DNA of 64,000 bases, from sequence record OR776998; one strand, 5' to 3'. Below are positions 5,011 to 47,443 of this stretch, piece after piece (the first letter of the stretch is position 1; every line of letters starts with the position of its first letter). The notes beneath the pieces were generated by a model. The model made no database searches. It was not told the DNA's origin and was given only the letters and a program-made list of their open reading frames with translations. The stretch comes from Escherichia phage YX22. The position numbers and the translations under genes are program-made.

Positions 5011-5033
5011 AAGAAAATACCCCCATGGATGAT

Positions 5034-5046
5034 GGGGGTATTTAGG
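5034..5046 (-). promoter_or_regulatory. late-promoter-like motif with following inverted repeat
   Basis: Minus strand GATCCCTAAATACCCCCATCATCCATGGGGGTATTTTCTT then ATG 5010. Confidence 0.45.
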
Positions 5047-28388: not shown

Positions 28389-28420
28389 TTTGATGCTCCA
28401 TCGATAGGTGCCATTATAGA

Positions 28421-28436
28421 GATATTTAGTATACAA
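28421..28436 (-). promoter_or_regulatory. late-promoter-like motif upstream of 1612-aa protein gene
   Basis: Minus strand TATACTAAATATCTC about 35 nt before ATG 28388. Confidence 0.45.
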
Positions 28437-28457
28437 CCAACCGAGGAATAGAAAGAA

Positions 28458-28482
28458 ATAAGCCCGAAGGGGCTTTGATTAT
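28458..28482 (-). terminator. hairpin terminator upstream of late promoter of the 1612-aa gene
   Basis: Minus strand AAGCCCC-TTCG-GGGCTT then ATTTCTTTCT. Confidence 0.5.
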
Positions 28483-28524
28483 CTTTCTGTGGTTATGGTC
28501 ATGGATTCGAGACCTCTGCCATTC

Positions 28525-28626
28525 ATGGTAGATGGTATTCAATTAGGTATGTTTAATATATCAGGTCAGACTATTACCTTAACTGCTGTATCGATTAGGG
28601 TAATGCAAACAGTAAACTCTATATAA
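28525..28626 (+). CDS. micro-ORF copy A (33 aa), antisense between tailspike 1 and the large virion protein
   Basis: MVDGIQLGMFNISGQTITLTAVSIRVMQTVNSI; differs from copy B almost only at third codon positions; no SD seen. Confidence 0.3.
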   Translation: MVDGIQLGMFNISGQTITLTAVSIRVMQTVNSI

Positions 28627-28650
28627 AAAGTATTATTAATAAGTAAAAAC
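28525..28650. repeat. ~126-nt direct repeat, copy 1 (about 94% identical to 33523..33648)
   Basis: Aligned by eye; 8 substitutions, 7 at codon position 3 of the plus-strand frame. Confidence 0.7.
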
Positions 28651-28680
28651 AACCCCATAGAAGTGGGGTTGTTTTTAAGT
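28651..28680. terminator. bidirectional terminator after tailspike 1
   Basis: AACAACCCCA-TAGAAG-TGGGGTTGTT with TTTTT (plus) and TTTAC (minus). Confidence 0.6.
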
Positions 28681-28689
28681 GATTATTAC

Positions 28690-30603
28690 TTACATAACAA
28701 CTGCGGCAGATATGTATCCTGAATCTTGATACGATCCAGAAAGGTCAAAAACTTCTAAGTTAAAAGAGTCAGGGGATGTACTTACGGCATTAATTACTAA
28801 TTTCCCTCCGCTAGTGGTATTGCCAACACTGCATAAAACAGCATAAGCAGAGGAGGGCATAGTATTAGATAGGTTGACGGTATATTTACCGGTCCCGGTT
28901 TTAGTTACAGTTGCTCCATCCGCATACACTAACGACCCCGAAATTCCATTAAAATTGATCATTGCCCGTGTACATGCACTCGACCTTTTTGCGACGGTAG
29001 ACCCAATAAATGCGTATTCTTGGGCCTTGTTAATATAAATCTTATTAACAGAAGTGTCAGGTACTTGTAAGACGTTGTCTATAACAACATTACAGGCTGT
29101 TGCTCCAGATACGGTAGAGCATCTATCTATCTCATAATTGTCGATATTAATAGCCCTTACAAAACCTATACCCCCAAATGCTGACCAGTTTTGTTTAACA
29201 AGAACACCGGAAATACCGGACAGGAAAATAAGATCGCCTGTCGTATCTTTGCTAAACGTGTTGTTGGTTATTGAAACAGAAGAAGAACGCGGTGAGTGAC
29301 TATCATCTGCAACATATACCCTGGCTAAAGAAGAAGCAGTATTCTCTTCAAAGTAGTTACCATCTACCAGTAACTGCTGTGCACCCCCGGCGACAACACC
29401 TACGTCATAGCCCGTGTTTGCTTCAAATAGAGAGTCTCTGACTATGAAATTTCGTACACTACTTGCAGTACCTGAGTCTCCGATAAGAACACCGTTAACA
29501 CCATCAAAGAAAGTACAATTATCAACTTTAACTACGTTGATATCTACCTTTGACGTTTTTACACCATTTGCACATTTAGCGAAATAGCATGAAGTTAGTT
29601 CAGCTACTCCGGAAAAATAGTCTGGGCTATCGTAATGTAAATAGACCCCATATCGAGCGTTTCTGACAACGCAATCTTGAAGTTTTAAATACCAAGCCCC
29701 ACCGAAATCAAAGCCATCAGATGATGAATCCTGGATATCCAGAAAAAGTCCAGAAATCTTAGCTCCTATCGCACCACCTTGAACCCGAATGGCGGGTGAC
29801 GCTAACCCGGTAAACTTAATTACTGAACCTGTTGTTTGGTCATTAACATGTCCAAAACTATTACCAACAATACATAGACTATCAGTGGCAGTTATGATTA
29901 AAGTAGAGCTTATAAGATAAATACCATCCGGTATGTATAAACTCTTTTTCGAATCTATTGCTGCCTGAAACGCGGCGGTATCATCGGTCACACCGTCGCC
30001 AACAGCCCCGAAGTCCTTGACTGACACCAGGTCTTTATTTTTATCATATAGTGTTCGCTTAATGGAGTTGGCCAGAGGTGACTTAAATCCGACCAGACCA
30101 GCGCCATCATCAGATGCAAGATTGATTCTCAAGGCTGCATCACCAACACTAACCCATTTGCCTAACCCAGTACCACCAGCACTTTCAGGAGTTGAGCCAG
30201 AAGAAACGGTTTTAGGTAACTCGCCATCCCAGCGATACTTACCTGTTGTATGGGTAAGCAATTCATTTTTAACATTAAGTGTAGCACCAGTGTCAAACGA
30301 CCCAGGCAATGTAACGTATTCTTCACGGGATACGGCTAATTCCCCAAGATCTATGGAACCAGCTGAATGTACAAGTACAGCATTAGTACCAAGACTTACA
30401 GCAGTAGTTCCTGCCGGAAGTACAGGTAATGAGTAAGCTCGTTGAGTAGTCTTATCGTAAATGACCTTGTAACCACCTAAGTCTACACCTACAGCAAAGT
30501 AGACTACTTCATTCTGCTTAACACCAAACTTACGGGCAATGGCTTGCTTATTGGTAAGAATACCAGTGGAGCCTTTACCACCTTGGGAGAACATCTCGTT
30601 CAT
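28690..30603 (-). CDS. tailspike 1 (637 aa)
   Basis: N-terminal module VVYF..GYKVIYD..TQRAYSLP..LGELAVSREEYVTLPGSFDTGATLNVKNELLTH shared with tailspikes 3 and 4; beta-helix-like C-terminus. Confidence 0.8.
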   Translation of the reverse strand: MNEMFSQGGKGSTGILTNKQAIARKFGVKQNEVVYFAVGVDLGGYKVIYDKTTQRAYSLPVLPAGTTAVSLGTNAVLVHSAGSIDLGELAVSREEYVTLPGSFDTGATLNVKNELLTHTTGKYRWDGELPKTVSSGSTPESAGGTGLGKWVSVGDAALRINLASDDGAGLVGFKSPLANSIKRTLYDKNKDLVSVKDFGAVGDGVTDDTAAFQAAIDSKKSLYIPDGIYLISSTLIITATDSLCIVGNSFGHVNDQTTGSVIKFTGLASPAIRVQGGAIGAKISGLFLDIQDSSSDGFDFGGAWYLKLQDCVVRNARYGVYLHYDSPDYFSGVAELTSCYFAKCANGVKTSKVDINVVKVDNCTFFDGVNGVLIGDSGTASSVRNFIVRDSLFEANTGYDVGVVAGGAQQLLVDGNYFEENTASSLARVYVADDSHSPRSSSVSITNNTFSKDTTGDLIFLSGISGVLVKQNWSAFGGIGFVRAINIDNYEIDRCSTVSGATACNVVIDNVLQVPDTSVNKIYINKAQEYAFIGSTVAKRSSACTRAMINFNGISGSLVYADGATVTKTGTGKYTVNLSNTMPSSAYAVLCSVGNTTSGGKLVINAVSTSPDSFNLEVFDLSGSYQDSGYISAAVVM

Positions 30604-30621
30604 AACAACCTCTTTGTTTTT

Positions 30622-30648
30622 CTAGTAAACCACCCCTTATGGGGGTGG
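30622..30648 (-). terminator. terminator after tailspike 2
   Basis: Minus strand CCACCCC-CATAA-GGGGTGG then TTT. Confidence 0.45.
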
Positions 30649-30660
30649 GGGAGTAGTTGA

Positions 30661-33324
30661 TTAGCTTAATGGTTTTACTTCCCATCGCTTGTCATAGTAA
30701 TGTGCAAAACCACAGTAGGATACAGACAGATGAACGATTGCATTTACTAGGCTTGCTGTAGGTAATGCAATTCTGACAAATGTTTTACCGTCACGTACCA
30801 GTTTAGTTACTGTTACCCCGGAAAGAGATTTATCACCAGCAATCATATTAGACCAGACTGCACCAGAGGCTACATTTTCCTGTGTGCTACCGGATAGCCC
30901 AAACAGAATACTGCCCCCTGATTCAGTACCAGCCAAACCATTTTTGTTAACTGGAATGATATCTGCACGCCCAGCAACGAAGCAACCATCTGGGATTTTA
31001 GTCTCTTCCCCTACAGCACAGAGAAATATATCCAAAGCCCTGTTCCATGGAACCAGTACAGTAGCTTCCTTGTGGTCAACACTCCGGAAGAACGAACTGC
31101 TATTAGAGTGAATTGCCGACAAAGTAGTGCCTGTATATGAGTTACGACCCTGTACAATATCTTCTCCATATACCCTGCCCCGGTAAAGGTTACCACGGTT
31201 ATATGTAGATATTGTGTAGGAACCATCGCTAACTTTTAAAAATTCAAAATTACTATTTAATGTAACACTACGCCCAATATACTGGTTACTTGGAGAAGTG
31301 GTATTCTCCATCAATTTGATAGCATAGTCAGAGTTAACGTAACCACTGTCAAAGATAATCCTACCAGCCTGGTACTCATTAGTAGGTAACTCAATAAAAT
31401 GAGTTACACCAGTATTCATTTTAGACTGAATCCAACAAGAAACATCTCTGAATACGATTGTTGTTTGTGCAGCAGGGGAAGCTAACTGTGAGAAGTCTAA
31501 TGCCACTGGCCCATTTATCCCTTCAATACCGAAGCCAGAGAATGAGAGGCTACGAATATCTCCATAAAATTTATGAGGTAAAATGCAACCATCTGCTGCA
31601 ATGTTGCTAGTAGCAACATACATGACAGGCAATCCATTACTGACTGGCTCATATGTAGTACGGTTAATGGCAGCTCCCCATAAAAAACCAATGTCACAAT
31701 GGTGTGCCCAAATAGATGACATATCCGTACTAGTGCTTCCATTGATACCAAAACCATAGGTACAGTCATATGCATACAAATTGGTCATAACACTAACAAA
31801 GCAAGCCATAGGCAAAGCGAACTTATAGTGGTAAAAGTCCACATCATGCACATTAAATGTCTTACCGCCACCACCTATGCCATTGCTTAAATCGAATGAA
31901 CTAATAACAAGAGGACTACCTACGTAATCAGAATCAGCATTTCGGAAAGAGAGGCGACCAATAGTAATATTGTGTCCCCATCTGGTAGAGATGAATCCAC
32001 CCTTACCTGATGTATAAATAATACTTTGTCTCTGACCAAGACCCGTAATGGATAGAGATCTGCCAGTCCAACGCTGATTGCTAATATCAATCTGTGTATC
32101 ACCAATATACATTGGTTGGGTAATTTTGATATTCAACCCATTAGCTACAGCATATGAATAGGTTGCTAACAAAGCATCCCCATCATTGTGCACACCAGTC
32201 AGGTCAGCAGCCCCCATACTTGGTGCTTTAGGATACGGACCGCCCTGAATGGTGCTGCCGTCGATATATGGGGCGTCCATCCACGCACCAAACATAGATG
32301 GGGTAACTTCGGTGCTACCACGTAAATCACGTACCCAACGTTTGCCGGATGCAGTAACAATAGTCATACCATTATCATCTGCTGATGTAACAGATGGTTT
32401 ATATACAAAATACCCGCCACCTAAATCACCGGCATTGGTTGCAATCATACCGTCAGTATGGGCTTCTACGTAAATACGTTGTTCAGCATAGGTAGGCTCA
32501 ATTGTTCGCAGTACTGCAATATTGGGGCATGTACCAATCAGCTTACTACCATCAGGCTTGCTCAGGTCTTCTCTGAGACTAGCACCAGAATTTGGGACTT
32601 CCATCAAATCTACGGTAATGTTACCTGGACTGTAGGTTAACTGACCATTAGACACAGAACTAATATAGACATTGGTCGGTAATGAAGGCAGGCCATAAAT
32701 TTTCTGAGCAGCTGCATCGAAGATAACTTTCTTGTTATCGAGTACTTGAGATGTATCCGTATTAAGAATTACCTCAGAATCTTTTACATTAGCTGAACGA
32801 GCGATTTCTTGAATACTTCGGTCAAACAACGGACTGATATTCGGTTGTTTAACAGACATTTCAGCGACTACCCAAACGCCTGCAGTCAGCGCAGTTTGTA
32901 AAGACACTTTCCCTGTCGTGCTGTCATAGGAATATTCAATTTCTGGTGTTTTGTACTCACCACCGATATAAAGAGATTGGACTCCATAAGATGTGTAATC
33001 AGGAGTGAACTCGGTTTCACCTCCTATAGCCTGAAACTTATAGATTCGAATCCCGGTTTTATAATCTTCTGGAGACAGAATCTTATCAAACAGACAGAAC
33101 ACAACGTCACCTTTGGATAATGCACACCCGAGATTCAACGTATTTCCATCGATTTCAAAGTTGTCTAACGGAACTTGCATACCACCGTTGATTGTGACTA
33201 TACCCGTGACAGGGTAGAAAGGGAGGGAGATAAACTTCTCTCCGCCCGTTGCTGTGTAAGTGTATGGAATCTGGTGCGGAGCTGTTACGACCGCTCCAAA
33301 GATGCTCTCGACGTTTCTGGTCAT
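30661..33324 (-). CDS. tailspike 2 (887 aa)
   Basis: Start at second ATG with GGGG SD; own late motif and terminator; long N-terminal region then repetitive beta-rich domain. Confidence 0.75.
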   Translation of the reverse strand: MTRNVESIFGAVVTAPHQIPYTYTATGGEKFISLPFYPVTGIVTINGGMQVPLDNFEIDGNTLNLGCALSKGDVVFCLFDKILSPEDYKTGIRIYKFQAIGGETEFTPDYTSYGVQSLYIGGEYKTPEIEYSYDSTTGKVSLQTALTAGVWVVAEMSVKQPNISPLFDRSIQEIARSANVKDSEVILNTDTSQVLDNKKVIFDAAAQKIYGLPSLPTNVYISSVSNGQLTYSPGNITVDLMEVPNSGASLREDLSKPDGSKLIGTCPNIAVLRTIEPTYAEQRIYVEAHTDGMIATNAGDLGGGYFVYKPSVTSADDNGMTIVTASGKRWVRDLRGSTEVTPSMFGAWMDAPYIDGSTIQGGPYPKAPSMGAADLTGVHNDGDALLATYSYAVANGLNIKITQPMYIGDTQIDISNQRWTGRSLSITGLGQRQSIIYTSGKGGFISTRWGHNITIGRLSFRNADSDYVGSPLVISSFDLSNGIGGGGKTFNVHDVDFYHYKFALPMACFVSVMTNLYAYDCTYGFGINGSTSTDMSSIWAHHCDIGFLWGAAINRTTYEPVSNGLPVMYVATSNIAADGCILPHKFYGDIRSLSFSGFGIEGINGPVALDFSQLASPAAQTTIVFRDVSCWIQSKMNTGVTHFIELPTNEYQAGRIIFDSGYVNSDYAIKLMENTTSPSNQYIGRSVTLNSNFEFLKVSDGSYTISTYNRGNLYRGRVYGEDIVQGRNSYTGTTLSAIHSNSSSFFRSVDHKEATVLVPWNRALDIFLCAVGEETKIPDGCFVAGRADIIPVNKNGLAGTESGGSILFGLSGSTQENVASGAVWSNMIAGDKSLSGVTVTKLVRDGKTFVRIALPTASLVNAIVHLSVSYCGFAHYYDKRWEVKPLS

Positions 33325-33339
33325 TTGAAGATACCCCAT

Positions 33340-33400
33340 AGAGGATTTGCCAATATGGGGTATTTAGTCTGAACTAATAAATTTATGAACAAAGGTATAA
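33340..33400. repeat. conserved tailspike promoter/leader cassette, copy 1 (matches 36710..36780)
   Basis: CTTGTTATACCTTTGTTCATAAATTTATTAGTTCAG..CTAAATACCCCATATTGG..TATGGGGTAT shared. Confidence 0.6.
33352..33367 (-). promoter_or_regulatory. late-promoter-like motif upstream of tailspike 2
   Basis: Minus strand GACTAAATACCCCATATTGG then TATGGGGTAT SD region. Confidence 0.5.
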
Positions 33401-33522
33401 CAAGGAGAACCAATGGAACTACAATAGTAGGTTCAGATGCCAGTACCAAAGTTCAGGGTGTAGATATAGCCAACAGGGATAACGTTTTAGCTACTTACAC
33501 ACTAGGTTCAGCAGACCCTTTC

Positions 33523-33624
33523 ATGGTGGATGGTATACAGTTAGGTATGTTCAACATATCAGGTCAGACTATTACCTTAACTGCTGTATCAGTAAGGGTA
33601 ATGCAAACAGTAAACTCTATATAA
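33523..33624 (+). CDS. micro-ORF copy B (C-terminal 33 codons of track ORF 33385..33624)
   Basis: Same peptide with I to V change; 6 of 7 differing codons synonymous. Confidence 0.3.
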   Translation: MVDGIQLGMFNISGQTITLTAVSVRVMQTVNSI

Positions 33625-33648
33625 AAAGTATTATTAATAAGTAAAAAC
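33523..33648. repeat. ~126-nt direct repeat, copy 2
   Basis: See copy 1. Confidence 0.7.
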
Positions 33649-33672
33649 TAACCCCGCCGAAGCGGGGTTTTG
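33640..33672 (-). terminator. terminator after tailspike 3
   Basis: Minus strand AACCCCGC-TTCG-GCGGGGTT then AGTTTTTACTT. Confidence 0.55.
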
Positions 33673-33676
33673 TTTA

Positions 33677-36600
33677 TTACTTCTGTTCAAGAGCAGAAAG
33701 TCTGGCTTCGATTCTTTCCAGTTTTCTTCGCTGATAAGCAGCTTCAGCAAAGAAAATTCCGTCAGGCCGCACGCCCCACTCCTCACCCTCTTCGTGAATA
33801 ACCACCTCAGTGAATACAGGCTCTTCCGTGGTGGTGACATTACCCTCCTCGTCAGTGTGTTCAACGATTTCATTGTGCGAAAATACCATATCGGTCATCC
33901 GTGGATACTTGTCATAGCACAGAACGGCATAACGACAATCCGTACTGTTTTCGTCCATCAGACCATGTGCAATGAATACATCACGAATTTGCTGAGCAAT
34001 AACCCCGAAGTGAATACGAGCTTCATTGCCTTTCAGTTGAACAGCATCTAACCACTGGTACATGATGTAGTGAACGTCACCCCAGGCATCCAGGAAAGCA
34101 TCATCAAAAACTACCGGCTCCGTTTTCTTCTCTCCGTTAGAAGTAACAATAGGGTTGCTTCCGAGGTATGCAGTGGTGAAACGGTTGCTGGGCCCACCAA
34201 GAGCAATAGCGTTATCGTTATAAGGCTTAACATCAGCAGTCTGGAACAGGTGCTCAGCTCCGTTGTAAACTATCCTGCGAGAAGCTGTGTTATTCGCACC
34301 GTAAAGCGTAATCTGTGCACCAGTAGAAGAACTGGTTCCTTCTCCACCGCAAAATATGGTGCGCTGTCCTGCTGGGTTATTAGTAGGTACAGATTTCCCA
34401 ATAAACCCATACTCGCCTTCCAGTAGCATTTCAGAGCGAATGTTATTACTGGTGCTGGCCCTAAGGGTCACATGACCTAAACCCAAATCTCCTGTAAATT
34501 CCATTGGCGCAGGGACAGTGCGAACCCCATTCGTATCAAAAAACACGGGAACAGCTCTGTCAGGTACAGCACCATATCTGAAATCCCTGGAAACACGATT
34601 GTCTGGGCCAATCTTCATTTTGTAGCAATACAAATCTGAGGGATGACCATCTGATTTGAATGGGTCTTTCGCTGAGTTATCTCCATATGTCCAGGGGTTC
34701 AGATGGTCTTCCCCACCGAACATGTAATAGATATAACTATCCTTAACAACCACTGAGCCAACACCGACTCCAGAGTTGACAATACCGCCCTGATAAATCT
34801 GGTCAGTGATATTCACCCACTGAGTATTATCCAGGTTCCAGGTGTCTAGGTTCACTCGCGTGTAGAACGTTCGTGGATAAGAAGTAAAGTATCGTTGATC
34901 AGGTACATTGGCTTCCCATTCGTTATCAGCACGCTCTGTGGCGAAAATGATTAGTTCATTACCGACTTTAGCGAACGGCAACGTAGAGTGGTGAACATTA
35001 TTAGGAAATCTGAGTGATTCCCAAGTCATGCCCAAATCATGACTACGATGCAACGAACTCCCCAAACGATCTGAACGAGTACCACGAGTTAAGACATAAA
35101 GAACGCCATCAAAATATTTAACGCAAGGCTCTGCCGCATCAGGTTCATAATCAGCAGGAATACGACGTTTTTGGTATAAACCCGGGTTATTAAACGCATC
35201 CGGGAAATACAACATGCCAACTTCACGAGGAGCAACATCACCTTGGTGATACCCCATCATGAATGAATCATTATTGATGGCGGTAAAACTATGAACTTCA
35301 GTCACCATTGGGATTAACCCAAGGCTGGTTTTACGCCACGGCGACTCATGGAACGATGTACCCATATGCCAACGGCTGGTAGAATTATTTTGGTCAAACG
35401 CCTGTTGATTTGGCGTGGTAACTGTGAAAGTGTTGCGGTCAATAACTGAAGTTACAGTCATATTCCCTGAAACTCCAGTCACCCCAGAGTTTGAGAAGTT
35501 AACAAAATCCCCAGCAAAAAGACCGTGTTCAGGGATAGTAATTACAGCCACAGGCTGGTTGGCGGCTTTAGTGATACCGCCTGTCGGATGGTAGTTACGG
35601 GACATGGGGCGATCCCACAACTCACAGGTTACCAGTGCGTTAGATGCCAATGTACGGGTCTCAATCATCGCAAAGAGACGATTACGCATCACCCCCATAC
35701 TCATGCAGTGGTAGTTAACTGTCGGATAGTCAGGATGTAGGTCGGTTAACCACTCCGGGGTTGTCCAGGTCTGTCCGTCATCCCCTGAACGAACCCAGGA
35801 TACATGCAGCCTGCTAACCCCATGTCTATCACTAGCCATGAACGGACAGTAAATAACATCGTCGTAAACGAACGCTTTATCTTGTGGCCACGCATTGTAA
35901 TAAGGGGTGTCCGTTATTTTGAACAGCTCGCCCTGAACAAATTCTTCAGAGGCATAATAAAGCGGCTGACCAGGAATACGCTCATAAACAAAACGAGTGT
36001 TGACGAATCGACTAATGTCAGGCAAGGATGTGACCTTATATGTCTTCCCATTGCCATTAATTTTCTGACCAACTGGTGCGGCGTTTAATACGCCATTAAG
36101 CGCTGAGGTGTCATCGGTGACCCCATCACCTTTTGCATTCCACCCGCGCGGGTCGAATGTGTCTCTCCATCTTGCGATCTGCAAATCTGGATATTTTGTT
36201 GCGCCATCAGGGTCAGAAAGCTGGCTTCTTAATGAAGCATCACCAACACTAACCCATGCACCAGTTCCAGTGCCACCAGTACTCCCAGGAGTTGAACCAG
36301 CTGGAACTGTTTTAGGGAATTCACCCTCCCAACGATACTTACCCGCTACATGAGTAAGGAGTTCATTTTTAACATTAAGTGTAGCACCAGTATCAAACGA
36401 CCCAGGTAAAGTCACATATTCTTCGCGACTTACGGCTAACTCCCCAAGGTCTACAGAACCAGCCGAATGAGCGAGGATTGCCTGTTCGTTCAGACTAACA
36501 GCAGTCGTTCCTGAAACAATACCTGAAGGAAGAGAATAAGCCCGTTGGGTAGACTCATCATAAATTACTTTAAATCCACTGAGATCAATACCAGCAGTGA

Positions 36601-36703
36601 AATAAACGACTTCGTCTTCTTTGACACCGAAATTTCGAGCGATAGATTGTTTGTTAACTTCTATGGAAGTGGAGCCGCGTGGTTGATTGAATTGAGAAAT
36701 CAT
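33677..36703 (-). CDS. tailspike 3 (1008 aa)
   Basis: Shares the ~150-aa N-terminal module with tailspike 1 at near identity; own late motif. Confidence 0.8.
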   Translation of the reverse strand: MISQFNQPRGSTSIEVNKQSIARNFGVKEDEVVYFTAGIDLSGFKVIYDESTQRAYSLPSGIVSGTTAVSLNEQAILAHSAGSVDLGELAVSREEYVTLPGSFDTGATLNVKNELLTHVAGKYRWEGEFPKTVPAGSTPGSTGGTGTGAWVSVGDASLRSQLSDPDGATKYPDLQIARWRDTFDPRGWNAKGDGVTDDTSALNGVLNAAPVGQKINGNGKTYKVTSLPDISRFVNTRFVYERIPGQPLYYASEEFVQGELFKITDTPYYNAWPQDKAFVYDDVIYCPFMASDRHGVSRLHVSWVRSGDDGQTWTTPEWLTDLHPDYPTVNYHCMSMGVMRNRLFAMIETRTLASNALVTCELWDRPMSRNYHPTGGITKAANQPVAVITIPEHGLFAGDFVNFSNSGVTGVSGNMTVTSVIDRNTFTVTTPNQQAFDQNNSTSRWHMGTSFHESPWRKTSLGLIPMVTEVHSFTAINNDSFMMGYHQGDVAPREVGMLYFPDAFNNPGLYQKRRIPADYEPDAAEPCVKYFDGVLYVLTRGTRSDRLGSSLHRSHDLGMTWESLRFPNNVHHSTLPFAKVGNELIIFATERADNEWEANVPDQRYFTSYPRTFYTRVNLDTWNLDNTQWVNITDQIYQGGIVNSGVGVGSVVVKDSYIYYMFGGEDHLNPWTYGDNSAKDPFKSDGHPSDLYCYKMKIGPDNRVSRDFRYGAVPDRAVPVFFDTNGVRTVPAPMEFTGDLGLGHVTLRASTSNNIRSEMLLEGEYGFIGKSVPTNNPAGQRTIFCGGEGTSSSTGAQITLYGANNTASRRIVYNGAEHLFQTADVKPYNDNAIALGGPSNRFTTAYLGSNPIVTSNGEKKTEPVVFDDAFLDAWGDVHYIMYQWLDAVQLKGNEARIHFGVIAQQIRDVFIAHGLMDENSTDCRYAVLCYDKYPRMTDMVFSHNEIVEHTDEEGNVTTTEEPVFTEVVIHEEGEEWGVRPDGIFFAEAAYQRRKLERIEARLSALEQK

Positions 36704-36709
36704 GATAAT

Positions 36710-36780
36710 ACCCCATAAAGGATGACCAATATGGGGTATTTAGGCTGAACTAATAAATTTATGAACAAAGGTATAACAAG
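36710..36780. repeat. conserved tailspike promoter/leader cassette, copy 2
   Basis: See copy 1. Confidence 0.6.
36734..36748 (-). promoter_or_regulatory. late-promoter-like motif upstream of tailspike 3
   Basis: Minus strand AGCCTAAATACCCCATATTGG..TATGGGGTATTATC ATG. Confidence 0.5.
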
Positions 36781-36805
36781 AACCCTGCCGAAGAGGGGGT
36801 TAGTT

Positions 36806-39787
36806 TTACGGGTAAGCACTCTCGAACTTACAGAACCAAGTCGTTCCTCCATCAGTTGTTGACAACCTAAAAACTTGTGTTCCAGCTGCTGTCAAAGATG
36901 GGGTACTACTTGCTAATATAACATTTGCACCAAATGTTATTGTTTTAGATGTTGTTGAATAGACAGCCAAAAGAACCTCAACATAACCAATTAGTGTATT
37001 TGTTAATACTGCTGGAGTTATTGTTACATCTCCTGTAACTGTAGCTGCGATGTAAGATGCGTCTGAAAAGTCAGGCGCATAACTTGCTGTTGGCGTCTCG
37101 AACTTTGGATTTCTTACCAATACAGGAACTCCAACATTTTTCCTGAAAATTGTACTATTGCAAACCATATCATACTCTATACCAACAAAATTCTTAGCTG
37201 CGAGTATGTTAGTAAATGTCTGGTCCGCAGAGTAAATATGAGTTATCAGCCTTGCCACCCATGCTGGTGAGTTTGAGTTTTCACACTCAATGAATGAGCA
37301 GTTGGTACTACCAACAGCGAATGGCATTAATGATGCCGTATATGAAGATAGCCCTGCGTCATTGAATGCATTCATATTCACAAAAGTCTGGCATTGAGAG
37401 AACGTATTACCGGTGGCTCCACCATCAATAAAAAAGCCAATCCCGCCGTTAATATAACCATCTACAGGATCTAAATTAGCTTTCGTGTAGTCCCATTTTG
37501 ATGGAGAATCTGCAAAACATTGATTGAAGGAATTGTTTATTGAGTTCTGTACAACAAAGCAGCATTTCATCCTTGAGTTCTGGTCAGTGACTGTATCGTC
37601 ATACATGCCCCAGTTGTGCACCTTACCAATTCTGTTATTACCACCACCACGAACCCAGGTACCAAATCGGAAATAACGACCTTCACCCATGCTAACCTGA
37701 TGATCGCTACCTTCAACAATGTGGGCTGTGCTGAGCGGATTAGTTGGTTTTAATACACCAACAGCATAAAACTTCAATAGGTGCACACCCATACCGCCAG
37801 CAATATGGATGCCATGACCATCAACGTTGGCTACGTAAATGCCTTCTAACTTGTTAGCATAGCCATCGGATATCTTAAACCCATTAACAGTTTTTGCACG
37901 GGCATCAATTAATAAGTTGCTGATATGCCCAGCGTATTGATTACCCGTCCCTTTATCGCATTTAACAGCATAGCCAGAGGAGTCTGCAACGAAGTCATCG
38001 GTGAGGTACACCCCACCGAAACCAGCATCAATGCTAACATCTCCGTGAATGTGTAGTGTCGTACTGATAGGATATTTCTTCCCATTCAGCCTGATAACTT
38101 TGCTTACAGTGTTAGGTTGTAGCCAGTCAGGATGGTTAGCAGCACTACTTGGTGCATGTTCTAAACCTGTTAAAGCTGCCGCAGCATCAATCGCATCCTG
38201 TAATGATGGATACATATCCGGGTTGACATTTATAATTTTCTTAAGCGCATTGCCAACAGTACCAGTTTCGTAATCAATTGACTTATCAAAACCTGAAAAA
38301 CCTGCTCCTGTAGGTTTAGCCAATTCTGACTTCAATGAAGCATCACCAACACTAATCCATGCGCCAACACCAACGCCGCCTGTTGTCATAAGAGTTGAGC
38401 CAGGAGCAACGGTTTTAGGAAGTGTACCATCCCAACGATACTTTCCATCAGTATGGGTGAGTAATTCATTTTTAACATTGATGACAGCACCAGAATCAAA
38501 TGTCCCAGACAATGTAACATATTCTTCACGAGATACAGCCAATTCCCCGAGATCTACAGAACCCGCTGAATGCACAAGTACAGCGGAAGAACTAAGACTG
38601 ACAGCAGTAGTACCAGGGACAATATCAGCAGGCAAGGGATAAGCCCTTTGCGTCTCCTTGTCATAAATAACTTTATACCCACTTAACGCAGCACCAACAC
38701 TAAAATAAACGACCTCTGTATCTTTAACATTGGTTACACGAGCAACTTCCCGCAAAGTATAATCAATTTGATTATAGATGTTTGGTGTTCCATTGATAAT
38801 TACAACAACTTCATCCTCTGGTTCCAGTTCTTGCGCAAGAGTGATTTTACTGGTTAATGGATCGAATGTGAATCCCAGATTTTTATACTGGCGACTTCCG
38901 TTTATATCAATGGCCGGAACATCATCAACAACGACGTCCAACGTGATTTCGGTTTCACCGCCAATCGCTGAACCCCCATTATAGACCCAGGTAATCGTAG
39001 AAGAACTAGAACCACCGCCATTACCCAATTGAATAGGAGTATATTCAATCACCTGAAGTTCTGTGTTGGCTGGCAAAGAAGGGCTGAAAGTGATTACATT
39101 CCCATCTAGTGAATATTTGGATTCCGCAAGACGTTTTCCGTCAGCATACACGTCCACGATTGTTGGTGGGGTATTGAGAGCGACAGTACTTGTTTCAGAC
39201 GCCAAAATTTTTGTAAAGATTTCACGACTGTAGACGCGACCTTGGCCAAGACCGACGCCGGATGTAATAATCCAACCTTGTTCAGGTCCAGACCAAGTGA
39301 ACGTTGCTGATACGTTATCAGTTGTTATAGCCATGTCTTCAGTGGAGCCATACAAATTATTTCCAGAAGGAGACACAGTCAATGGGTAAGTGGCAAATTT
39401 CCCATAAGCATCACAAATAGTAACGGAATCCCCAATACGCGTAGGGGAAGGGAGAACCACTGTAGATGCCCCTGTGGTATTATTAATGAGATAGCCTCGC
39501 CCTTCAGTGAGCGTTGCCGTAGAGGCATGCGGAAGGACTTCCCAGCGGATACCACCGCCACCCAGCGGCAACCATCCACCATTTTCATAGAAGCCCTCAA
39601 ATTCGTCGGAGTCGGCATTGTAGCGAACGGAAGACGGGAGTCCTGCGCTGGCATTACCCTCGGGTAAAGTCAGGACAGCATCTGGTCCATGCTCAATCGT
39701 ACCCGTGTTGAGGAGACCAGCCAAAGTAGACTGCTCTTCAGCCGCCAGACCGAGAGGGAAAACAGGCTGTGTTGGTTTATTAGCCAT
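36806..39787 (-). CDS. tailspike 4 (993 aa) with ~340-aa N-terminal extension
   Basis: Conserved module is internal (after residue ~350); start at ATG 39787; own late motif. Confidence 0.8.
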   Translation of the reverse strand: MANKPTQPVFPLGLAAEEQSTLAGLLNTGTIEHGPDAVLTLPEGNASAGLPSSVRYNADSDEFEGFYENGGWLPLGGGGIRWEVLPHASTATLTEGRGYLINNTTGASTVVLPSPTRIGDSVTICDAYGKFATYPLTVSPSGNNLYGSTEDMAITTDNVSATFTWSGPEQGWIITSGVGLGQGRVYSREIFTKILASETSTVALNTPPTIVDVYADGKRLAESKYSLDGNVITFSPSLPANTELQVIEYTPIQLGNGGGSSSSTITWVYNGGSAIGGETEITLDVVVDDVPAIDINGSRQYKNLGFTFDPLTSKITLAQELEPEDEVVVIINGTPNIYNQIDYTLREVARVTNVKDTEVVYFSVGAALSGYKVIYDKETQRAYPLPADIVPGTTAVSLSSSAVLVHSAGSVDLGELAVSREEYVTLSGTFDSGAVINVKNELLTHTDGKYRWDGTLPKTVAPGSTLMTTGGVGVGAWISVGDASLKSELAKPTGAGFSGFDKSIDYETGTVGNALKKIINVNPDMYPSLQDAIDAAAALTGLEHAPSSAANHPDWLQPNTVSKVIRLNGKKYPISTTLHIHGDVSIDAGFGGVYLTDDFVADSSGYAVKCDKGTGNQYAGHISNLLIDARAKTVNGFKISDGYANKLEGIYVANVDGHGIHIAGGMGVHLLKFYAVGVLKPTNPLSTAHIVEGSDHQVSMGEGRYFRFGTWVRGGGNNRIGKVHNWGMYDDTVTDQNSRMKCCFVVQNSINNSFNQCFADSPSKWDYTKANLDPVDGYINGGIGFFIDGGATGNTFSQCQTFVNMNAFNDAGLSSYTASLMPFAVGSTNCSFIECENSNSPAWVARLITHIYSADQTFTNILAAKNFVGIEYDMVCNSTIFRKNVGVPVLVRNPKFETPTASYAPDFSDASYIAATVTGDVTITPAVLTNTLIGYVEVLLAVYSTTSKTITFGANVILASSTPSLTAAGTQVFRLSTTDGGTTWFCKFESAYP

Positions 39788-39820
39788 TTCAAATACCCCT
39801 AAATGTGTTCGTTTCATCTA

Positions 39821-39835
39821 GGGGTATTTAGTTTT
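39821..39835 (-). promoter_or_regulatory. late-promoter-like motif upstream of tailspike 4
   Basis: Minus strand AACTAAATACCCCTAGATG..TAGGGGTATTTGAA ATG. Confidence 0.5.
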
Positions 39836-39839
39836 CACT

Positions 39840-41030
39840 TTAGAAAGAAGCTACAATAGAATAATCGACCGAACAAGCAGTTGTTGTATTCGCATTAACA
39901 ACGGAAATTCTCAATTTACCGCCCACCACAGCCCCTGTGAACGTCACTGTACCGCTCGTACTTTTCTGAACCAACAACTCCGATTTGATCGTTCCGTCGC
40001 GAGTTATAGTTACTCGATATGTATCAACAACGTCACCTGTTCCCCATTGCGCGGTCACCAGTATTTGACAAAGGTTCACCAAATCAAAATCTGGAAGAGC
40101 CGTCGTCCCAGAAGCCGAAACCGTGTAAGAAGACAAATTCGTTTTGGTACGATAAACGGCGTTCCCTAAACTATTGTCGACAGAGGTCATCTTGGCATTA
40201 TACGTTGATACATTAACTTTATCACTGGAAAGAGAACTGATGCTGTTATCCAGAGATGTCATCTTCGTGTTGTACGTGCTGACCTCGACTTTATTACCCA
40301 GAGACGTATTGATATTGGAGATACTCAAATCCAACGATGCCATCTTAGTGTTGTAAGTCGATGTGTTGACTTTCCCGTTCAACGACGTGTTGATGCCATT
40401 AATCTGGGACTCTAGACTCAGCATATCTGCGTCATACGCTGTCGTTGTCACATATCCACCAAATCGGTTATCTGCAAACAACGCATCAAAAAATGCAGTC
40501 ATTGTCCAATAACGCGCTCCAGAATCTGTTTGTACTGGAATTGAAGTCGGCAGTGTTGATCCGGTATACGCAGACAATCTGGTGAAGTCCAAATTGAATT
40601 TGTAATATCCGGATGCCAACAACTCCCCAGCCAAACCAGAACCAGGTGGGGTAGTGTCTTCACTGACACCATGCTTTCTCAGCATGCTCAGGTTAACACC
40701 ATCTGTCGCTACCACAGGCTCATCCACGATAGACAGTTTCTTTCCAGCCGGAACAGTCAGGCCGCCGTTGGCTGTCAACAACGCAGCAAAAGTCTTGTTC
40801 CCGTTGATCGTTTGTTCACCACCGTCGGTGCGGATCACTTTGTTTTCCAGTGTGTCGTAGATATTATCCACAGAACGCTTCAGCTCGTATGTCAAATGAG
40901 CTGAAGGAGGGAACAACGGATCATCAACAGCGAAATCGTTGACAACATCAGTCTTGCTTATTTTATCGTCAACAGAAGAAAGGATTGCATCAATCTGCTG
41001 ACCTGTGTATCGACTCAGAAAATCGGCCAT
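39840..41030 (-). CDS. tail fibre protein with tandem peptide repeats
   Basis: 396 aa; repeats of about 25 aa (SLDxSISNINTSLGNKVxVSTYNTKMT); AAGGAG SD. Confidence 0.65.
   Translation of the reverse strand: MADFLSRYTGQQIDAILSSVDDKISKTDVVNDFAVDDPLFPPSAHLTYELKRSVDNIYDTLENKVIRTDGGEQTINGNKTFAALLTANGGLTVPAGKKLSIVDEPVVATDGVNLSMLRKHGVSEDTTPPGSGLAGELLASGYYKFNLDFTRLSAYTGSTLPTSIPVQTDSGARYWTMTAFFDALFADNRFGGYVTTTAYDADMLSLESQINGINTSLNGKVNTSTYNTKMASLDLSISNINTSLGNKVEVSTYNTKMTSLDNSISSLSSDKVNVSTYNAKMTSVDNSLGNAVYRTKTNLSSYTVSASGTTALPDFDLVNLCQILVTAQWGTGDVVDTYRVTITRDGTIKSELLVQKSTSGTVTFTGAVVGGKLRISVVNANTTTACSVDYSIVASF
40170..40440. repeat. in-frame tandem repeats (about 75 nt unit, 3-4 copies) inside tail fibre gene
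   Basis: catcttNgtgttgta(a/c)gt..gacNt.. units giving repeated STYNTKMTSLDNSIS peptide. Confidence 0.5.
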
Positions 41031-41032
41031 TT

Positions 41033-47220: not shown

Positions 47221-47443
47221 CCAAATTACGGGCGTGACTTCCTGAAGAGTTAGAAGATGTGCATGTCGACTCTCTCTCGTAATCGGGGTGTTTAGGAAGT
47301 TAAGAAAATCGCGGCGAGGATAGTGAAATGCAAATAGCTTTCTCTACGTCGACGACTTCAGGTTCGACTCCTGACGCGCTCTCCCATAGGGTAGTACCAG
47401 TGCAAGCGTGTAGTCTTTCAACCCATCCCATCGATGTGGTGTA

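What the first reader, a model, noticed from the sequence alone, without database searches (positions are those of the whole stretch)
28437..39835. Four-tailspike cassette array with shared N-terminal adaptor module and per-gene promoter/terminator units
Tailspikes 1, 3 and 4 share a ~150-aa module (VVYF..GYKVIYD..LGELAVSREEYVTL..NVKNELLTH..GKYRW) at near identity while the downstream domains differ. In tailspike 4 the module is internal, after a ~340-aa N-terminal extension, consistent with the branched tailspike complexes described for CBA120-like phages. Tailspikes 2, 3 and 4 each have their own late motif and terminator; tailspike 1 has none. This layout suits horizontal swapping of receptor-binding domains.
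Basis: partly seen in the sequence, partly recalled or inferred. Interest (0 to 1): 0.5.

Follow-up and report, generated by a model that had tools for sequence, protein, structure and literature searches.

The report
Four-tailspike cluster of an Ackermannviridae phage
This is the well-known four-gene tailspike cluster of a CBA120/Agtrevirus-type phage, whose spikes dock onto each other through conserved N-terminal domains and swap their sugar-cutting ends with other phages; the unusual detail is that one spike carries a K1-capsule endosialidase.

Summary
The four minus-strand genes are real and syntenic with CBA120 orf210-213, on an Agtrevirus-like backbone (about 97% nt to PC3, RPN242, CECAV_050). 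The shared module is the published "head" (D1-D2, also called TD1-TD2). It starts TSP1 and TSP3, and follows AD-XD1-XD2-XD3 in TSP4. Copies are 69-75% identical, not near-identical. The late motif CTAAATACCCC precedes TSP2, TSP3 and TSP4 but not TSP1; this holds in four genera. The terminator claim is partly wrong: TSP1 has the strongest hairpin and TSP4's is degenerate. Modular mosaicism is directly shown. Each receptor-binding domain has a different closest relative, and all four breakpoints fall inside or at the 3' end of the head module. TSP3 is a K1F-type endosialidase with its C-terminal chaperone. Its closest relatives (94.6% aa) are in N4-like Gamaleyavirus phages. I found no Ackermannviridae record with this fusion. 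A remnant of a Gamaleyavirus gene lies behind TSP3 and TSP1 as a recombination scar. The kind is known; this is a new combination. Side observation: each late motif is the 5' arm of a conserved hairpin whose 3' arm lies over the likely ribosome-binding site.

The parts
28437..28689 (-). 3' flank of TSP1. It holds a terminator-like hairpin plus T-run (28644-28677) and a 138-nt copy (28519-28656) of the remnant of Gamaleyavirus gene phrog_17779.
   Evidence: -19.2 kcal/mol. Repeat D2 is 92% identical to 33517-33654. It is 86-89% identical to UE-S5a and LHE287.
28690..30603 (-). TSP1 (637 aa). Head D1-D2 plus neck lie at ~30100-30546. The beta-helix receptor-binding domain lies at 28693-30099. 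It has no late motif of its own; its SD GAGG is at 30609-30612.
   Evidence: PDB 4oj5 E 5e-87 over aa 1-216. Pfam PF18668 and PF12708. The receptor-binding domain is 93.6% aa identical to a spike of Phapecoctavirus dw-ec. The nucleotide breakpoint lies at 30224-30231.
30630..30648 (-). Hairpin CCACCCC/GGGGTGG between TSP2 and TSP1, followed by a poor U-tract (TTTACTAG). It is probably a leaky terminator, so tsp1 would be read from the tsp2 transcript.
   Evidence: The same layout (hairpin, then tagaaaaacaaNgaggt, then ATG, with no late motif) is seen in CBA120, ps4, RPN242, LHE287, fGh-Ecl02 and CECAV_050.
30661..33324 (-). TSP2 (887 aa from Met6 of the ORF). XD2-XD3 lie at ~32848-33324. The diverged D1 lies at ~32518-32847. 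The beta-helix receptor-binding domain lies at 30664-32517.
   Evidence: PDB 6w4q E 5e-143 over aa 6-354. D1 is 33-35% identical to the TSP1 and TSP3 heads. The AF2 model has pLDDT 80.7, and Foldseek matches phage tailspike depolymerases at E 5e-14. The receptor-binding domain is 98% aa identical to fGh-Ecl02. It is 95% identical to a gp66-position spike of an N4-like contig.
33331..33367 (-). Late motif CTAAATACCCC (33357-33367). It forms the 5' arm of a hairpin whose 3' arm GGGGTAT lies 6 nt before the TSP2 ATG.
   Evidence: Conserved in four genera.
33385..33624 (+). A 79-codon chimeric ORF. Codons 6-79 are a 3' remnant (aa 135-208, 91% identity) of a 208-aa Gamaleyavirus gene (phrog_17779). 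Codons 1-5 come from the conserved intergenic repeat. I read it as a recombination scar and probably not a gene.
   Evidence: Repeat D4 33350-33404 / 36726-36780.
33650..33669 (-). Intrinsic-terminator-like hairpin after TSP3 (AACCCCGC-TTCG-GCGGGGTT followed by AGTTTTTAC).
   Evidence: -16.1 kcal/mol.
33677..36703 (-). TSP3 (1008 aa). Head D1-D2 plus neck lie at ~36200-36664. The endosialidase (N-terminal extension, beta-propeller with inserted beta-barrel, stalk) lies at ~34142-36136. The C-terminal intramolecular chaperone lies at 33680-34141, with the predicted cleavage serine at S855.
   Evidence: Pfam End_beta_propel E 1e-204, End_tail_spike 1e-76, End_beta_barrel, End_N_terminal, Peptidase_S74 and Tail_spike_N. 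It is 94.6% aa identical to the endosialidase of Gamaleyavirus UE-S5a and 85.9% to K1F gp17. The head is 97.6% nt identical to CECAV_050 TSP3 down to 36228.
36707..36743 (-). Late motif (36733-36743) plus hairpin. The 3' arm GGGGTAT lies 4 nt before the TSP3 ATG.
36781..36801 (-). Degenerate terminator-like hairpin after TSP4 (AACCC..GGGTT with internal mismatches).
   Evidence: Intact versions occur in CBA120 and RPN242.
36806..39787 (-). TSP4 (993 aa from Met11 of the ORF). Baseplate anchor AD plus XD1-XD2-XD3 lie at ~38774-39787. Head D1-D2 plus neck lie at ~38303-38767. The receptor-binding domain lies at 36809-38302.
   Evidence: PDB 7rej E 2e-196 (aa 11-348) and 5w6h E 2e-75 (aa 354-517). 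The receptor-binding domain is 98.6% aa identical to CECAV_050. It is 95% identical to gp63.1-position spikes of N4-like contigs. The AF2 model has pLDDT 65, and beta-helix matches are weak. The breakpoint against RPN242 and LHE287 lies at 38334-38341.
39790..39831 (-). Late motif (39821-39831) plus a 16-bp hairpin. The 3' arm GGGGTATTT ends just before the TSP4 ATG at 39787.
   Evidence: (-24.5 kcal/mol).

Best explanation
The region is the tsp1-tsp4 receptor-binding gene cluster of an Agtrevirus-like Ackermannviridae phage. Its products are inferred to assemble into the branched tailspike complex described for CBA120. In that model, TSP4 anchors to the baseplate through its N-terminal anchor domain. 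TSP4's XD2 binds the XD2 of TSP2, and its XD3 binds the D1-D2 head of TSP1. The XD3 of TSP2 binds the head of TSP3. The ~150-aa shared module is this head plus the alpha-helical neck. Each spike ends in a different polysaccharide-degrading domain: beta-helices in TSP1 and TSP2, probably also in TSP4, and a K1F-type endosialidase with a releasable chaperone in TSP3. The phage should therefore recognise up to four surface glycans, one of them the polysialic-acid K1 capsule. tsp4, tsp3 and tsp2 each carry a T4-type late-promoter motif. tsp1 has none and is probably read through from tsp2. The conserved head and neck DNA, together with the conserved intergenic promoter and terminator blocks, give the homology by which receptor-binding domains or whole genes are exchanged. 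Partners include other Ackermannviridae and, notably, G7C-like N4 podophages that use the same docking system. Shown here: gene content, domain homology, motif positions, mosaic breakpoints. Inferred: physical assembly, enzymatic specificities, promoter activity.
For: Synteny with CBA120 orf209-217, on a backbone 97% nt identical to Agtrevirus-type phages. Sequence matches to solved CBA120 parts: 7rej E 2e-196, 6w4q E 5e-143, 4oj5 E 5e-87, plus 5w6f and 5w6h. Pfam finds Tail_spike_N in TSP1, TSP3 and TSP4, and the full endosialidase domain set in TSP3. TSP2 has only a diverged D1, exactly as published (PMC8825819, PMC8432352). The TSP2 C-terminal model (pLDDT 80.7) matches tailspike depolymerases. 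The mosaic is direct. Against CECAV_050, identity is 97.6% from 36228 to 42000. Against RPN242 and LHE287 it is 97% only from 38334 onward. Against fGh-Ecl02 it is 93% over 30224-33368. Against dw-ec it is 90.7% over 28678-30231. Against UE-S5a it is 91% over 33666-36092. No phage record covers 80% or more of the cluster. Late motifs are enriched: 8 matches (6 exact) against 0.55 expected. Their positions are conserved in Kuttervirus, Agtrevirus, Limestonevirus and Taipeivirus. G+C drops to 42-46% across the cluster against 48-52% in the flanks.
Against: No protein-protein contact, enzymatic activity or transcript start was measured here. The TSP4 C-terminal fold prediction is of low confidence (pLDDT 65). 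Published models differ on whether TSP1 needs a preformed TSP2:TSP4 complex (PMC8825819). The function of the internal head in TSP4 and of D1 in TSP2 is not established. Homology of the head to non-branched spikes (K1F gp17, Shuimuvirus) shows that at least D2 and the neck are not exclusively docking elements.
Confidence: 0.93

Rival explanations
1. The shared module is mainly a glycan-binding or catalytic accessory domain of the spikes, not an assembly adaptor. Its conservation would then reflect receptor chemistry rather than docking.
For: Pfam names PF18668 a 'receptor binding N-terminal domain'. The D2-plus-neck half also occurs in spikes of phages with no XD partner: K1F-like gp17, ~47-kb Shuimuvirus-type contigs and prophages. 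The TSP4 copy is internal and has no known docking partner.
Against: Published ultracentrifugation shows that CBA120 TSP1 and TSP3 bind TSP4 and TSP2:TSP4 through their head domains (PMC8825819). The module stays constant while the downstream specificity domains change completely. Each copy is far closer to its positional orthologue in other genera (84-98% nt) than to its paralogues (72-74% nt), as expected for partner-specific docking.
Confidence: 0.08
2. The array arose by recent tandem duplication within this genome, and the differing C-termini reflect rapid divergence rather than horizontal acquisition.
For: Three direct repeats of 283 nt lie in the same orientation. Two further intergenic repeats are present, D2 and D4.
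Against: Paralogous heads are only 69-75% aa identical, while each matches its orthologue in CBA120, ps4 and CECAV_050 much better. The C-terminal domains have 91-98% relatives in unrelated phage families: Phapecoctavirus, Gamaleyavirus and siphophages. A foreign gene remnant flanks two of the cassettes.
Confidence: 0.03
3. The cluster is one late operon driven from upstream of tsp4. The internal CTAAATACCCC-hairpin elements would be RNA structures, such as processing or stability sites or attenuators, rather than independent promoters.
For: The terminators after TSP4 and TSP2 are weak. Every internal motif is part of a stable inverted repeat of -17 to -24 kcal/mol. No transcript data exist for this phage.
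Against: The same 11-mer occurs in front of unrelated late-type genes elsewhere in the window, two of them without any hairpin (1838 and 49618). It contains TAAATA, the core of the T4 late promoter TATAAATA, and the family encodes gp55, gp33 and gp45 homologues (PMC3184105). TSP3 is followed by a good terminator immediately before the tsp2 motif.
Confidence: 0.12

Closest known systems
CBA120 (Kuttervirus) TSP1-TSP4 branched receptor-binding complex (Plattner et al. 2019, cited from memory; Chao et al. 2022, PMC8825819)
   Same: Same gene order and flanking genes. Same domain plan: AD-XD1-XD2-XD3-D1-D2 in TSP4, XD2-XD3-D1 in TSP2, and D1-D2 in TSP1 and TSP3. Same late motif and hairpin positions, and tsp1 likewise lacks a motif.
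   Different: All four receptor-binding domains differ. The backbone is only ~75-88% nt identical. CBA120 TSP3 is a beta-helix O77 hydrolase, whereas TSP3 here is an endosialidase beta-propeller.
Agtrevirus phages AV101, RPN242, PC3/PH4, CECAV_050 and fGh-Ecl02 (PMC10791037)
   Same: Backbone 96-98% nt identical. TSP4 and the TSP3 head are shared with CECAV_050, and TSP2 with fGh-Ecl02. The paper already notes a region of nucleotide identity just upstream of the beta-helix in tsp1, tsp3 and tsp4 as a likely recombination site.
   Different: No listed relative has the same four receptor-binding domains. None has an endosialidase.
G7C-like N4 podophages (Gamaleyavirus): gp66/gp63.1 two-branched complex (Prokhorov et al. 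2017, as cited in PMC8825819)
   Same: Same docking logic: a gp63.1 head binds the XD3 of gp66. PDB 4qnl (gp63.1) matches the TSP1 head at E 3e-60. Relatives of the TSP2, TSP3 and TSP4 receptor-binding domains at 94-95% aa sit at the gp66 or gp63.1 positions of such phages. A remnant of their downstream gene lies in this cluster.
   Different: They are podoviruses with two spikes and a different particle anchor. In UE-S5a the endosialidase sits on the XD-bearing gp66-type protein, whereas here it sits on a head-only TSP3.
Endosialidase endoNF of phage K1F (gp17) and its C-terminal intramolecular chaperone
   Same: 85.9% aa identity over the catalytic part and chaperone. The Pfam domain set is the same. 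The D2 end and neck junction are shared. The residues aligned with K1F E581, R596, R647 and cleavage Ser911 are conserved as E525, R540, R591 and S855; the alignment is and the K1F residue numbers are from memory.
   Different: The N-terminal adaptor is a T7 gp17-type domain in K1F and an Ackermannviridae TSP3 head here.
Phage T4 baseplate protein gp10
   Same: The XD1-XD3 domains of TSP4 and TSP2 have the gp10 fold and the same role of binding trimeric partners (PMC8825819).
   Different: gp10 binds gp11 and gp12, not enzymatic tailspikes. This comparison was not tested structurally here.

Membership tests
Ackermannviridae TSP1-4 branched receptor-binding cluster (CBA120 type) | Consecutive tsp genes lie between the VriC-like gene and the orf215/baseplate-wedge genes, all on one strand. 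| tested here: met
   VriC homologue 23550-28436, four tsp genes, orf215 homologue 39840-41030, then wedge genes. The order is the same as CBA120 orf209-217.
Ackermannviridae TSP1-4 branched receptor-binding cluster (CBA120 type) | TSP4 has an N-terminal anchor domain plus XD1-XD2-XD3 ahead of the head. | tested here: met
   7rej (TSP4-N335) aligns to ORF aa 11-348 with E 2e-196. 5w6h aligns to aa 354-517.
Ackermannviridae TSP1-4 branched receptor-binding cluster (CBA120 type) | TSP2 has XD2-XD3 followed by D1 only, with no D2. | tested here: met
   6w4q aligns to aa 6-354 with E 5e-143; only the first half of the module aligns, at 33-35% identity. Pfam PF18668 (D2) is absent from TSP2.
Ackermannviridae TSP1-4 branched receptor-binding cluster (CBA120 type) | TSP1 and TSP3 begin directly with the D1-D2 head, including the GTTAVSL motif at the end of TD1. 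| tested here: met
   GTTAVSL is present in TSP1, TSP3 and TSP4 (sequences). The motif is described in PMC8432352.
Ackermannviridae TSP1-4 branched receptor-binding cluster (CBA120 type) | Each spike has a C-terminal polysaccharide-degrading receptor-binding domain. | tested here: inconclusive
   Met for TSP1 (PF12708, Sf6/HK620-type hits). Met for TSP2 (model pLDDT 80.7, tailspike depolymerase matches). Met for TSP3 (endosialidase). For TSP4 the model is weak (pLDDT 65) and beta-helix matches reach only E ~3e-4.
Ackermannviridae TSP1-4 branched receptor-binding cluster (CBA120 type) | The four trimers physically assemble into one branched complex on the baseplate. | not testable with these tools
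   Needs electron microscopy, ultracentrifugation or pull-downs. It is inferred from homology to the parts studied in PMC8825819.
Phage endosialidases (endoN, K1F gp17 type) | Domain set: N-terminal extension, six-bladed beta-propeller with inserted beta-barrel, stalk domain, and C-terminal intramolecular chaperone (Peptidase_S74). | tested here: met
   PF12218, PF12217 (E 1e-204), PF12195, PF12219 and PF13884 all score above their curated cut-offs.
Phage endosialidases (endoN, K1F gp17 type) | Catalytic residues and the chaperone cleavage serine are conserved. | tested here: met
   The alignment puts E525, R540, R591 and S855 opposite K1F-numbered E581, R596, R647 and S911. The identities of these K1F residues are recalled from the endoNF literature and were not retrieved here.
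Phage endosialidases (endoN, K1F gp17 type) | The protein cleaves alpha-2,8-polysialic acid, and infection depends on the K1 capsule. | not testable with these tools
   Requires enzyme and host-range assays.
T4-type late transcription units | A late-promoter box with a TAAATA core lies immediately upstream of late genes. | tested here: met
   PMC3184105 reports gp55, gp33 and gp45 homologues in the family, and states that the family's late sequence had not yet been defined in 2011.
T4-type late transcription units | Transcription initiates at these sites late in infection. | not testable with these tools
   No transcript data are available.

The most novel reading that the evidence does not exclude
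Each tsp late promoter may be built into a translational gate of the T4 lysozyme (gene e) type. The motif ATACCCC is the 5' arm of a conserved hairpin whose 3' arm GGGGTAT covers the likely Shine-Dalgarno region, 4-6 nt before the ATG. Transcripts that start at the late promoter would begin inside or just after the 5' arm and so leave the ribosome site open. Read-through RNA from the upstream gene would fold and be silent. Each promoter-leader-gene-terminator cassette would then be a self-contained, portable expression unit. This would fit the swapping of whole tsp genes across phage families, and would explain why tsp1, which has neither motif nor hairpin, depends on read-through from tsp2. 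Separately, this may be the first Ackermannviridae phage armed with a K1 endosialidase.
Probability: 0.3. Interest if true: 0.45.

Novelty: new member of a known kind. Interest (0 to 1): 0.25.

Why it matters
The architecture is textbook for this family, so the finding adds no new principle. Three points have practical or evolutionary value. First, an Agtrevirus carrying a K1F-type endosialidase on a TSP3 head would extend Ackermannviridae host recognition to K1-encapsulated E. coli, the strains associated with neonatal meningitis, urinary infection and avian disease. It is also a natural proof that a non-beta-helix, chaperone-dependent enzyme can be mounted on the branched complex, which is useful for the ongoing engineering of these phages (PMC11414711, PMC9965104). 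Second, three of the four specificity domains have 94-95% relatives in G7C-like N4 podophages, and a remnant of one of their genes sits in the cluster. This documents recent traffic between two phage families that share one docking system. Third, the breakpoints give natural junction coordinates for chimeric spike design.

Tried and rejected
1. I considered the 79-codon plus-strand ORF (33385-33624) as a real small gene between TSP2 and TSP3. I rejected this. Codons 6-79 are the last 74 residues of a 208-aa Gamaleyavirus protein. The first five codons come from the conserved intergenic repeat and do not match that protein's N-terminus.

2. I looked for the same TSP3 fusion elsewhere:
- No phage record covers 80% or more of the cluster.
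- None of the listed propeller-bearing phage records is an Ackermannviridae. Only 60 of the 138 were listed; the ~150-kb ones among those are phi92-like at 57%.
- The 5.8-billion-protein search gave no full-length hit at 90% or more.
- An exact 62-nt junction search of IMG/VR found nothing.
- The IMG/VR protein search split cleanly into head-only and endosialidase-only loci.
Metagenome and genome contig collections were not scanned.

3. I recalled that the motif CTAAATAcCcc was published as the late promoter of 'Viunalikevirus' (Adriaenssens et al. 2012). I could not retrieve that paper. Kutter et al. 2011 state that the late sequence was then unknown. The attribution therefore rests on memory.

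4. The sigma-70 scan found fewer promoter-like sites than in shuffled sequence (19 against 30.8), so host-type promoters are not an explanation.

5. IME392 (116 kb, 93.9% aa endosialidase) was checked as a possible Ackermannviridae. It is an unrelated, unclassified myovirus.

6. Structure-server failures were retried successfully. The TSP4 C-terminal model remained weak.

Full report
**What is there**

The interval holds four long minus-strand ORFs: 28690-30603 (637 aa), 30661-33339 (892 aa), 33677-36703 (1008 aa) and 36806-39817 (1003 aa). They lie between a 1628-aa VriC-like gene (23550-28436; DUF4815) and a 396-aa gene (39840-41030) that is followed by baseplate-wedge genes.

The flanking backbone is 96-98% nt identical to Agtrevirus-type Ackermannviridae: PC3/PH4, A221, RPN242, CECAV_050 and fGh-Ecl02. 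It is about 75-88% identical to Kuttervirus phages. G+C falls to 42-46% across the cluster, against 48-52% in the flanks.

The mechanical ORF starts of TSP2 and TSP4 are probably too early. PDB 6w4q and 7rej align from residues 6 and 11. Relatives are mostly annotated at the corresponding ATGs. That gives starts at 33324 and 39787.

**The shared module**

- BLASTP between the window's own proteins gives E 4e-69 (TSP1/TSP3), 2e-63 (TSP1/TSP4) and 5e-60 (TSP3/TSP4).
- Over the ~149-residue module the copies are 75%, 70% and 69% identical. Identical runs reach 34 residues (DLGELAVSREEYVTLPGSFDTGATLNVKNELLTH).
- At the DNA level identity is 72-74%, and the longest exact matches are 17-30 nt.
- "Near identity" is therefore an overstatement.
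- Pfam PF18668 (Tail_spike_N) hits all three.
- The region aligns to the N-terminal parts of solved CBA120 TSP1 (4oj5), TSP3 (5w6f, 6nw9) and TSP4 (5w6h), and to G7C gp63.1 (4qnl).

[quoted passage not shown] It is also called TD1-TD2 (PMC8432352). Those papers state that TSP1, TSP3 and TSP4 carry D1-D2 and that TSP2 carries only D1. I find the same here. TSP2 ORF aa 165-274 align to the first half of the module at 33-35% identity, and PF18668 is absent from TSP2. The GTTAVSL motif, proposed as a recombination site at the end of TD1 (PMC8432352), is present in TSP1, TSP3 and TSP4.

**The N-terminal extensions**

TSP4 ORF aa 11-348 match CBA120 TSP4-N335 (7rej) at E 2e-196. That fragment comprises the baseplate anchor domain and XD1-XD2-XD3. 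TSP2 aa 6-354 match full-length CBA120 TSP2 (6w4q) at E 5e-143.

According to PMC8825819:
- TSP4 anchors the complex to the baseplate.
- TSP2 binds TSP4 through XD2.
- TSP1 binds the XD3 of TSP4 through its head.
- TSP3 binds the preformed TSP2:TSP4 complex through its head.

"Adaptor" is therefore correct for the module in TSP1 and TSP3. In TSP4 and TSP2 the XD domains do the docking, and the role of the internal head is not established. Assembly in this phage is inferred from homology; it was not shown here.

**The C-terminal domains**

- TSP3 is an endosialidase. End_N_terminal, End_beta_propel (E 1e-204), End_beta_barrel, End_tail_spike and the Peptidase_S74 chaperone all score far above their cut-offs. 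It is 94.6% aa identical over 817 residues to the endosialidase of Gamaleyavirus phages UE-S5a and PBM-3, and 85.9% to K1F gp17. In the alignment to a K1F-like protein, E525, R540 and R591 align with E581, R596 and R647, and S855 aligns with the chaperone cleavage serine S911. The K1F residue roles are recalled from the endoNF literature.
- TSP1 has a pectate-lyase-type beta-helix signature (PF12708) and matches Sf6/HK620-type spikes.
- The TSP2 C-terminal model (pLDDT 80.7) matches phage tailspike depolymerases, including CBA120 TSP2. The best hits have Foldseek probability 1.00 and E down to 5e-14.
- The TSP4 C-terminal model is weak (pLDDT 65) and gives only weak beta-helix matches (E ~3e-4). 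Its fold is probable but not shown.

**Mosaicism**

No phage record covers 80% or more of the cluster. Each receptor-binding domain has a different closest relative:

| Domain | Closest relative | Identity |
|---|---|---|
| TSP1 | a spike of Phapecoctavirus dw-ec, with a different N-terminus | 93.6% aa |
| TSP2 | fGh-Ecl02; next best are siphophages at 57% | 98% aa |
| TSP3 | Gamaleyavirus | 94.6% aa |
| TSP4 | CECAV_050, then ps4 and BME3 | 98.6%, 96.9%, 96.5% aa |

In the large protein collection, the TSP2 and TSP4 domains occur behind at least three adaptor types: the head domain (PF18668), the P22 head-binding domain (PF09008) and the T7 fibre N-terminus (PF03906). The 95% relatives of the TSP2 and TSP4 domains sit at the gp66 and gp63.1 positions of ~72-kb N4-like contigs.

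Nucleotide breakpoints against relatives are:

| Window interval | Relative | Identity |
|---|---|---|
| up to ~28524 | Agtrevirus backbone | 98% |
| 28678-30231 | dw-ec | 90.7% |
| 30224-33368 | fGh-Ecl02 | 93% |
| ~32609/32623-33404 | the other Agtrevirus relatives (CECAV_050, RPN242, LHE287) | 91-92% |
| 33666-36092 | UE-S5a | 91% |
| 36228-42000 | CECAV_050 | 97.6% |
| 38334 onward | RPN242 and LHE287 | 97% |

In protein terms the junctions fall at TSP1 aa ~125 (within D2), TSP2 aa ~239 (end of D1), TSP3 aa ~159 (start of the neck, GAWVSVGDA) and TSP4 ORF aa ~493 (end of D2). All four lie inside or at the 3' end of the head module. The neck motif Y.W.G..PK.V..GSTP...GG.G.GAWVSVGDA.LR is shared with K1F-type gp17 and the dw-ec spike. 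That explains how such foreign domains can be joined.

Each head copy is much closer to its positional orthologue in other genera than to its paralogues. The paralogy is therefore old, and recent in-situ duplication is excluded.

**A recombination scar**

Between TSP3 and TSP2, on the plus strand, lies a 79-codon ORF (33385-33624). Its codons 6-79 are 91% identical to residues 135-208 of a 208-aa protein (phrog_17779). In Gamaleyavirus UE-S5a that gene lies convergent to, and just downstream of, the tailspike pair. The first five codons come from a 55-nt intergenic repeat shared with the region upstream of TSP3 (D4), and they do not match that protein's N-terminus. A second, shorter copy lies behind TSP1 (28519-28656, 92% identical). 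Other Agtrevirus phages carry the same remnant behind TSP1. I read these as hitch-hiked flanks of cassettes exchanged with G7C-like phages, not as genes.

**Expression signals**

CTAAATACCCC occurs 8 times in the window with up to one mismatch (6 of them exact), against 0.55 expected. Exact copies lie 20-45 nt upstream of the TSP2, TSP3 and TSP4 starts, and none lies before TSP1. The same pattern holds in CBA120, ps4, RPN242, LHE287, fGh-Ecl02 and CECAV_050. It also holds for the TSP2- and TSP4-type genes of Limestonevirus XF4 and Taipeivirus Menlow.

The motif contains TAAATA, the core of the T4 late promoter, and the family has gp55, gp33 and gp45 homologues (PMC3184105). The promoter function is inferred. 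My attribution of the motif to Adriaenssens et al. 2012 is from memory.

TSP1 is preceded by a 7-bp G+C hairpin with a poor U-tract and a good GAGG ribosome site. It is therefore probably co-transcribed with TSP2. The terminator-like hairpins are:

| After | Hairpin |
|---|---|
| TSP1 | -19.2 kcal/mol with a T-run; the strongest |
| TSP3 | -16.1 kcal/mol; good |
| TSP2 | 7-bp G+C stem with a poor U-tract, so probably leaky (whole-flank fold -15.3 kcal/mol) |
| TSP4 | degenerate here and in CECAV_050; intact in CBA120 and RPN242 |

The terminator statement is partly wrong.

**Side observation: a hairpin built on the late motif**

In 22 of 25 exact motif sites examined (window plus six loci), GGGGTAT follows within 11-21 nt. 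The chance expectation is 0.012 per site. GGGGTAT ends 4-6 nt before the start codon. It pairs with the ATACCCC of the motif to form hairpins of -17 to -24 kcal/mol. The loops and stem extensions differ between TSP2/3-type, TSP4-type and other genes, while pairing is kept.

By analogy with T4 gene e (from memory: McPheeters et al. 1986), transcripts started at the late promoter would lack the 5' arm and be translatable. Read-through RNA would have the ribosome site sequestered. This is untested.

**Novelty**

The architecture, the head module, its absence or divergence in TSP2, the recombination-site idea and experimental swapping are all published (PMC8825819, PMC8432352, PMC10791037, PMC11414711, PMC9965104, PMC11721090).

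What appears new is the specific combination, above all an endosialidase on a TSP3 head:
- The 2024 review does not mention endosialidases.
- None of the listed propeller-bearing phage records is an Ackermannviridae (60 of 138 listed).
- IMG/VR hits split into head-only (~157 kb) and endosialidase-only (37-58 kb) contigs.
- No full-length hit at 90% or more exists among 5.8 billion proteins.

These are database-limited negatives.

**Verdict**

This is an ordinary, correctly recognised system and a new member of a known kind. It offers a modestly interesting host-range implication and a testable side observation on the promoter hairpins.

Noticed in passing
window 39790-39831, 36707-36743, 33331-33367 and ~5004-5045 (all minus strand); also L006, L005, L007, L008, L001, L002, L029, L030: The late motif CTAAATACCCC is the 5' arm of a conserved hairpin whose 3' arm GGGGTAT lies 4-6 nt before the start codon. 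This holds at 22 of 25 sites, against a chance of 0.012 per site. It is conserved in four Ackermannviridae genera, with varying loops. It could be a T4 gene-e-type translational gate.
   Followed up: partly
window 33385-33624 (+), 28519-28656, 36726-36780: A 79-codon ORF is a 3' remnant of a 208-aa Gamaleyavirus gene (phrog_17779) fused to five codons of a conserved intergenic repeat. A second, truncated copy lies behind TSP1. These look like recombination scars from cassette exchange with N4-like phages.
   Followed up: yes
L031 6001-9072, L032 6001-8049, L004 5366-9013: Three of the four receptor-binding domains (TSP2, TSP3, TSP4) have 94-95% aa relatives at the gp66 or gp63.1 positions of ~72-kb N4-like (Gamaleyavirus-type) genomes. 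This suggests recent and repeated traffic between the two families.
   Followed up: partly
window 33325-33339 and 39788-39817; L001 TSP2 and TSP4 annotations: The longest-ORF starts of TSP2 and TSP4 lie inside the promoter hairpin. They are probably wrong by 5 and 10 codons. The CECAV_050 record annotates these upstream starts.
   Followed up: partly
window 28001-40000: G+C is 42-46% across the tailspike cluster against 48-52% in both flanks. This fits a pool of horizontally exchanged genes.
   Followed up: no
window 23550-28436 (-): The VriC-like 1628-aa ORF (DUF4815, weak Phage_spike_2 hit) starts mechanically at a TTG. The real start is probably a few codons downstream. Its function in the family is unknown.
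   Followed up: no
window 39168-39178 (-) and 47285-47295 (-): One-mismatch copies of the late motif. The first lies inside the TSP4 coding sequence (XD region) and is probably a chance match.
   Followed up: no
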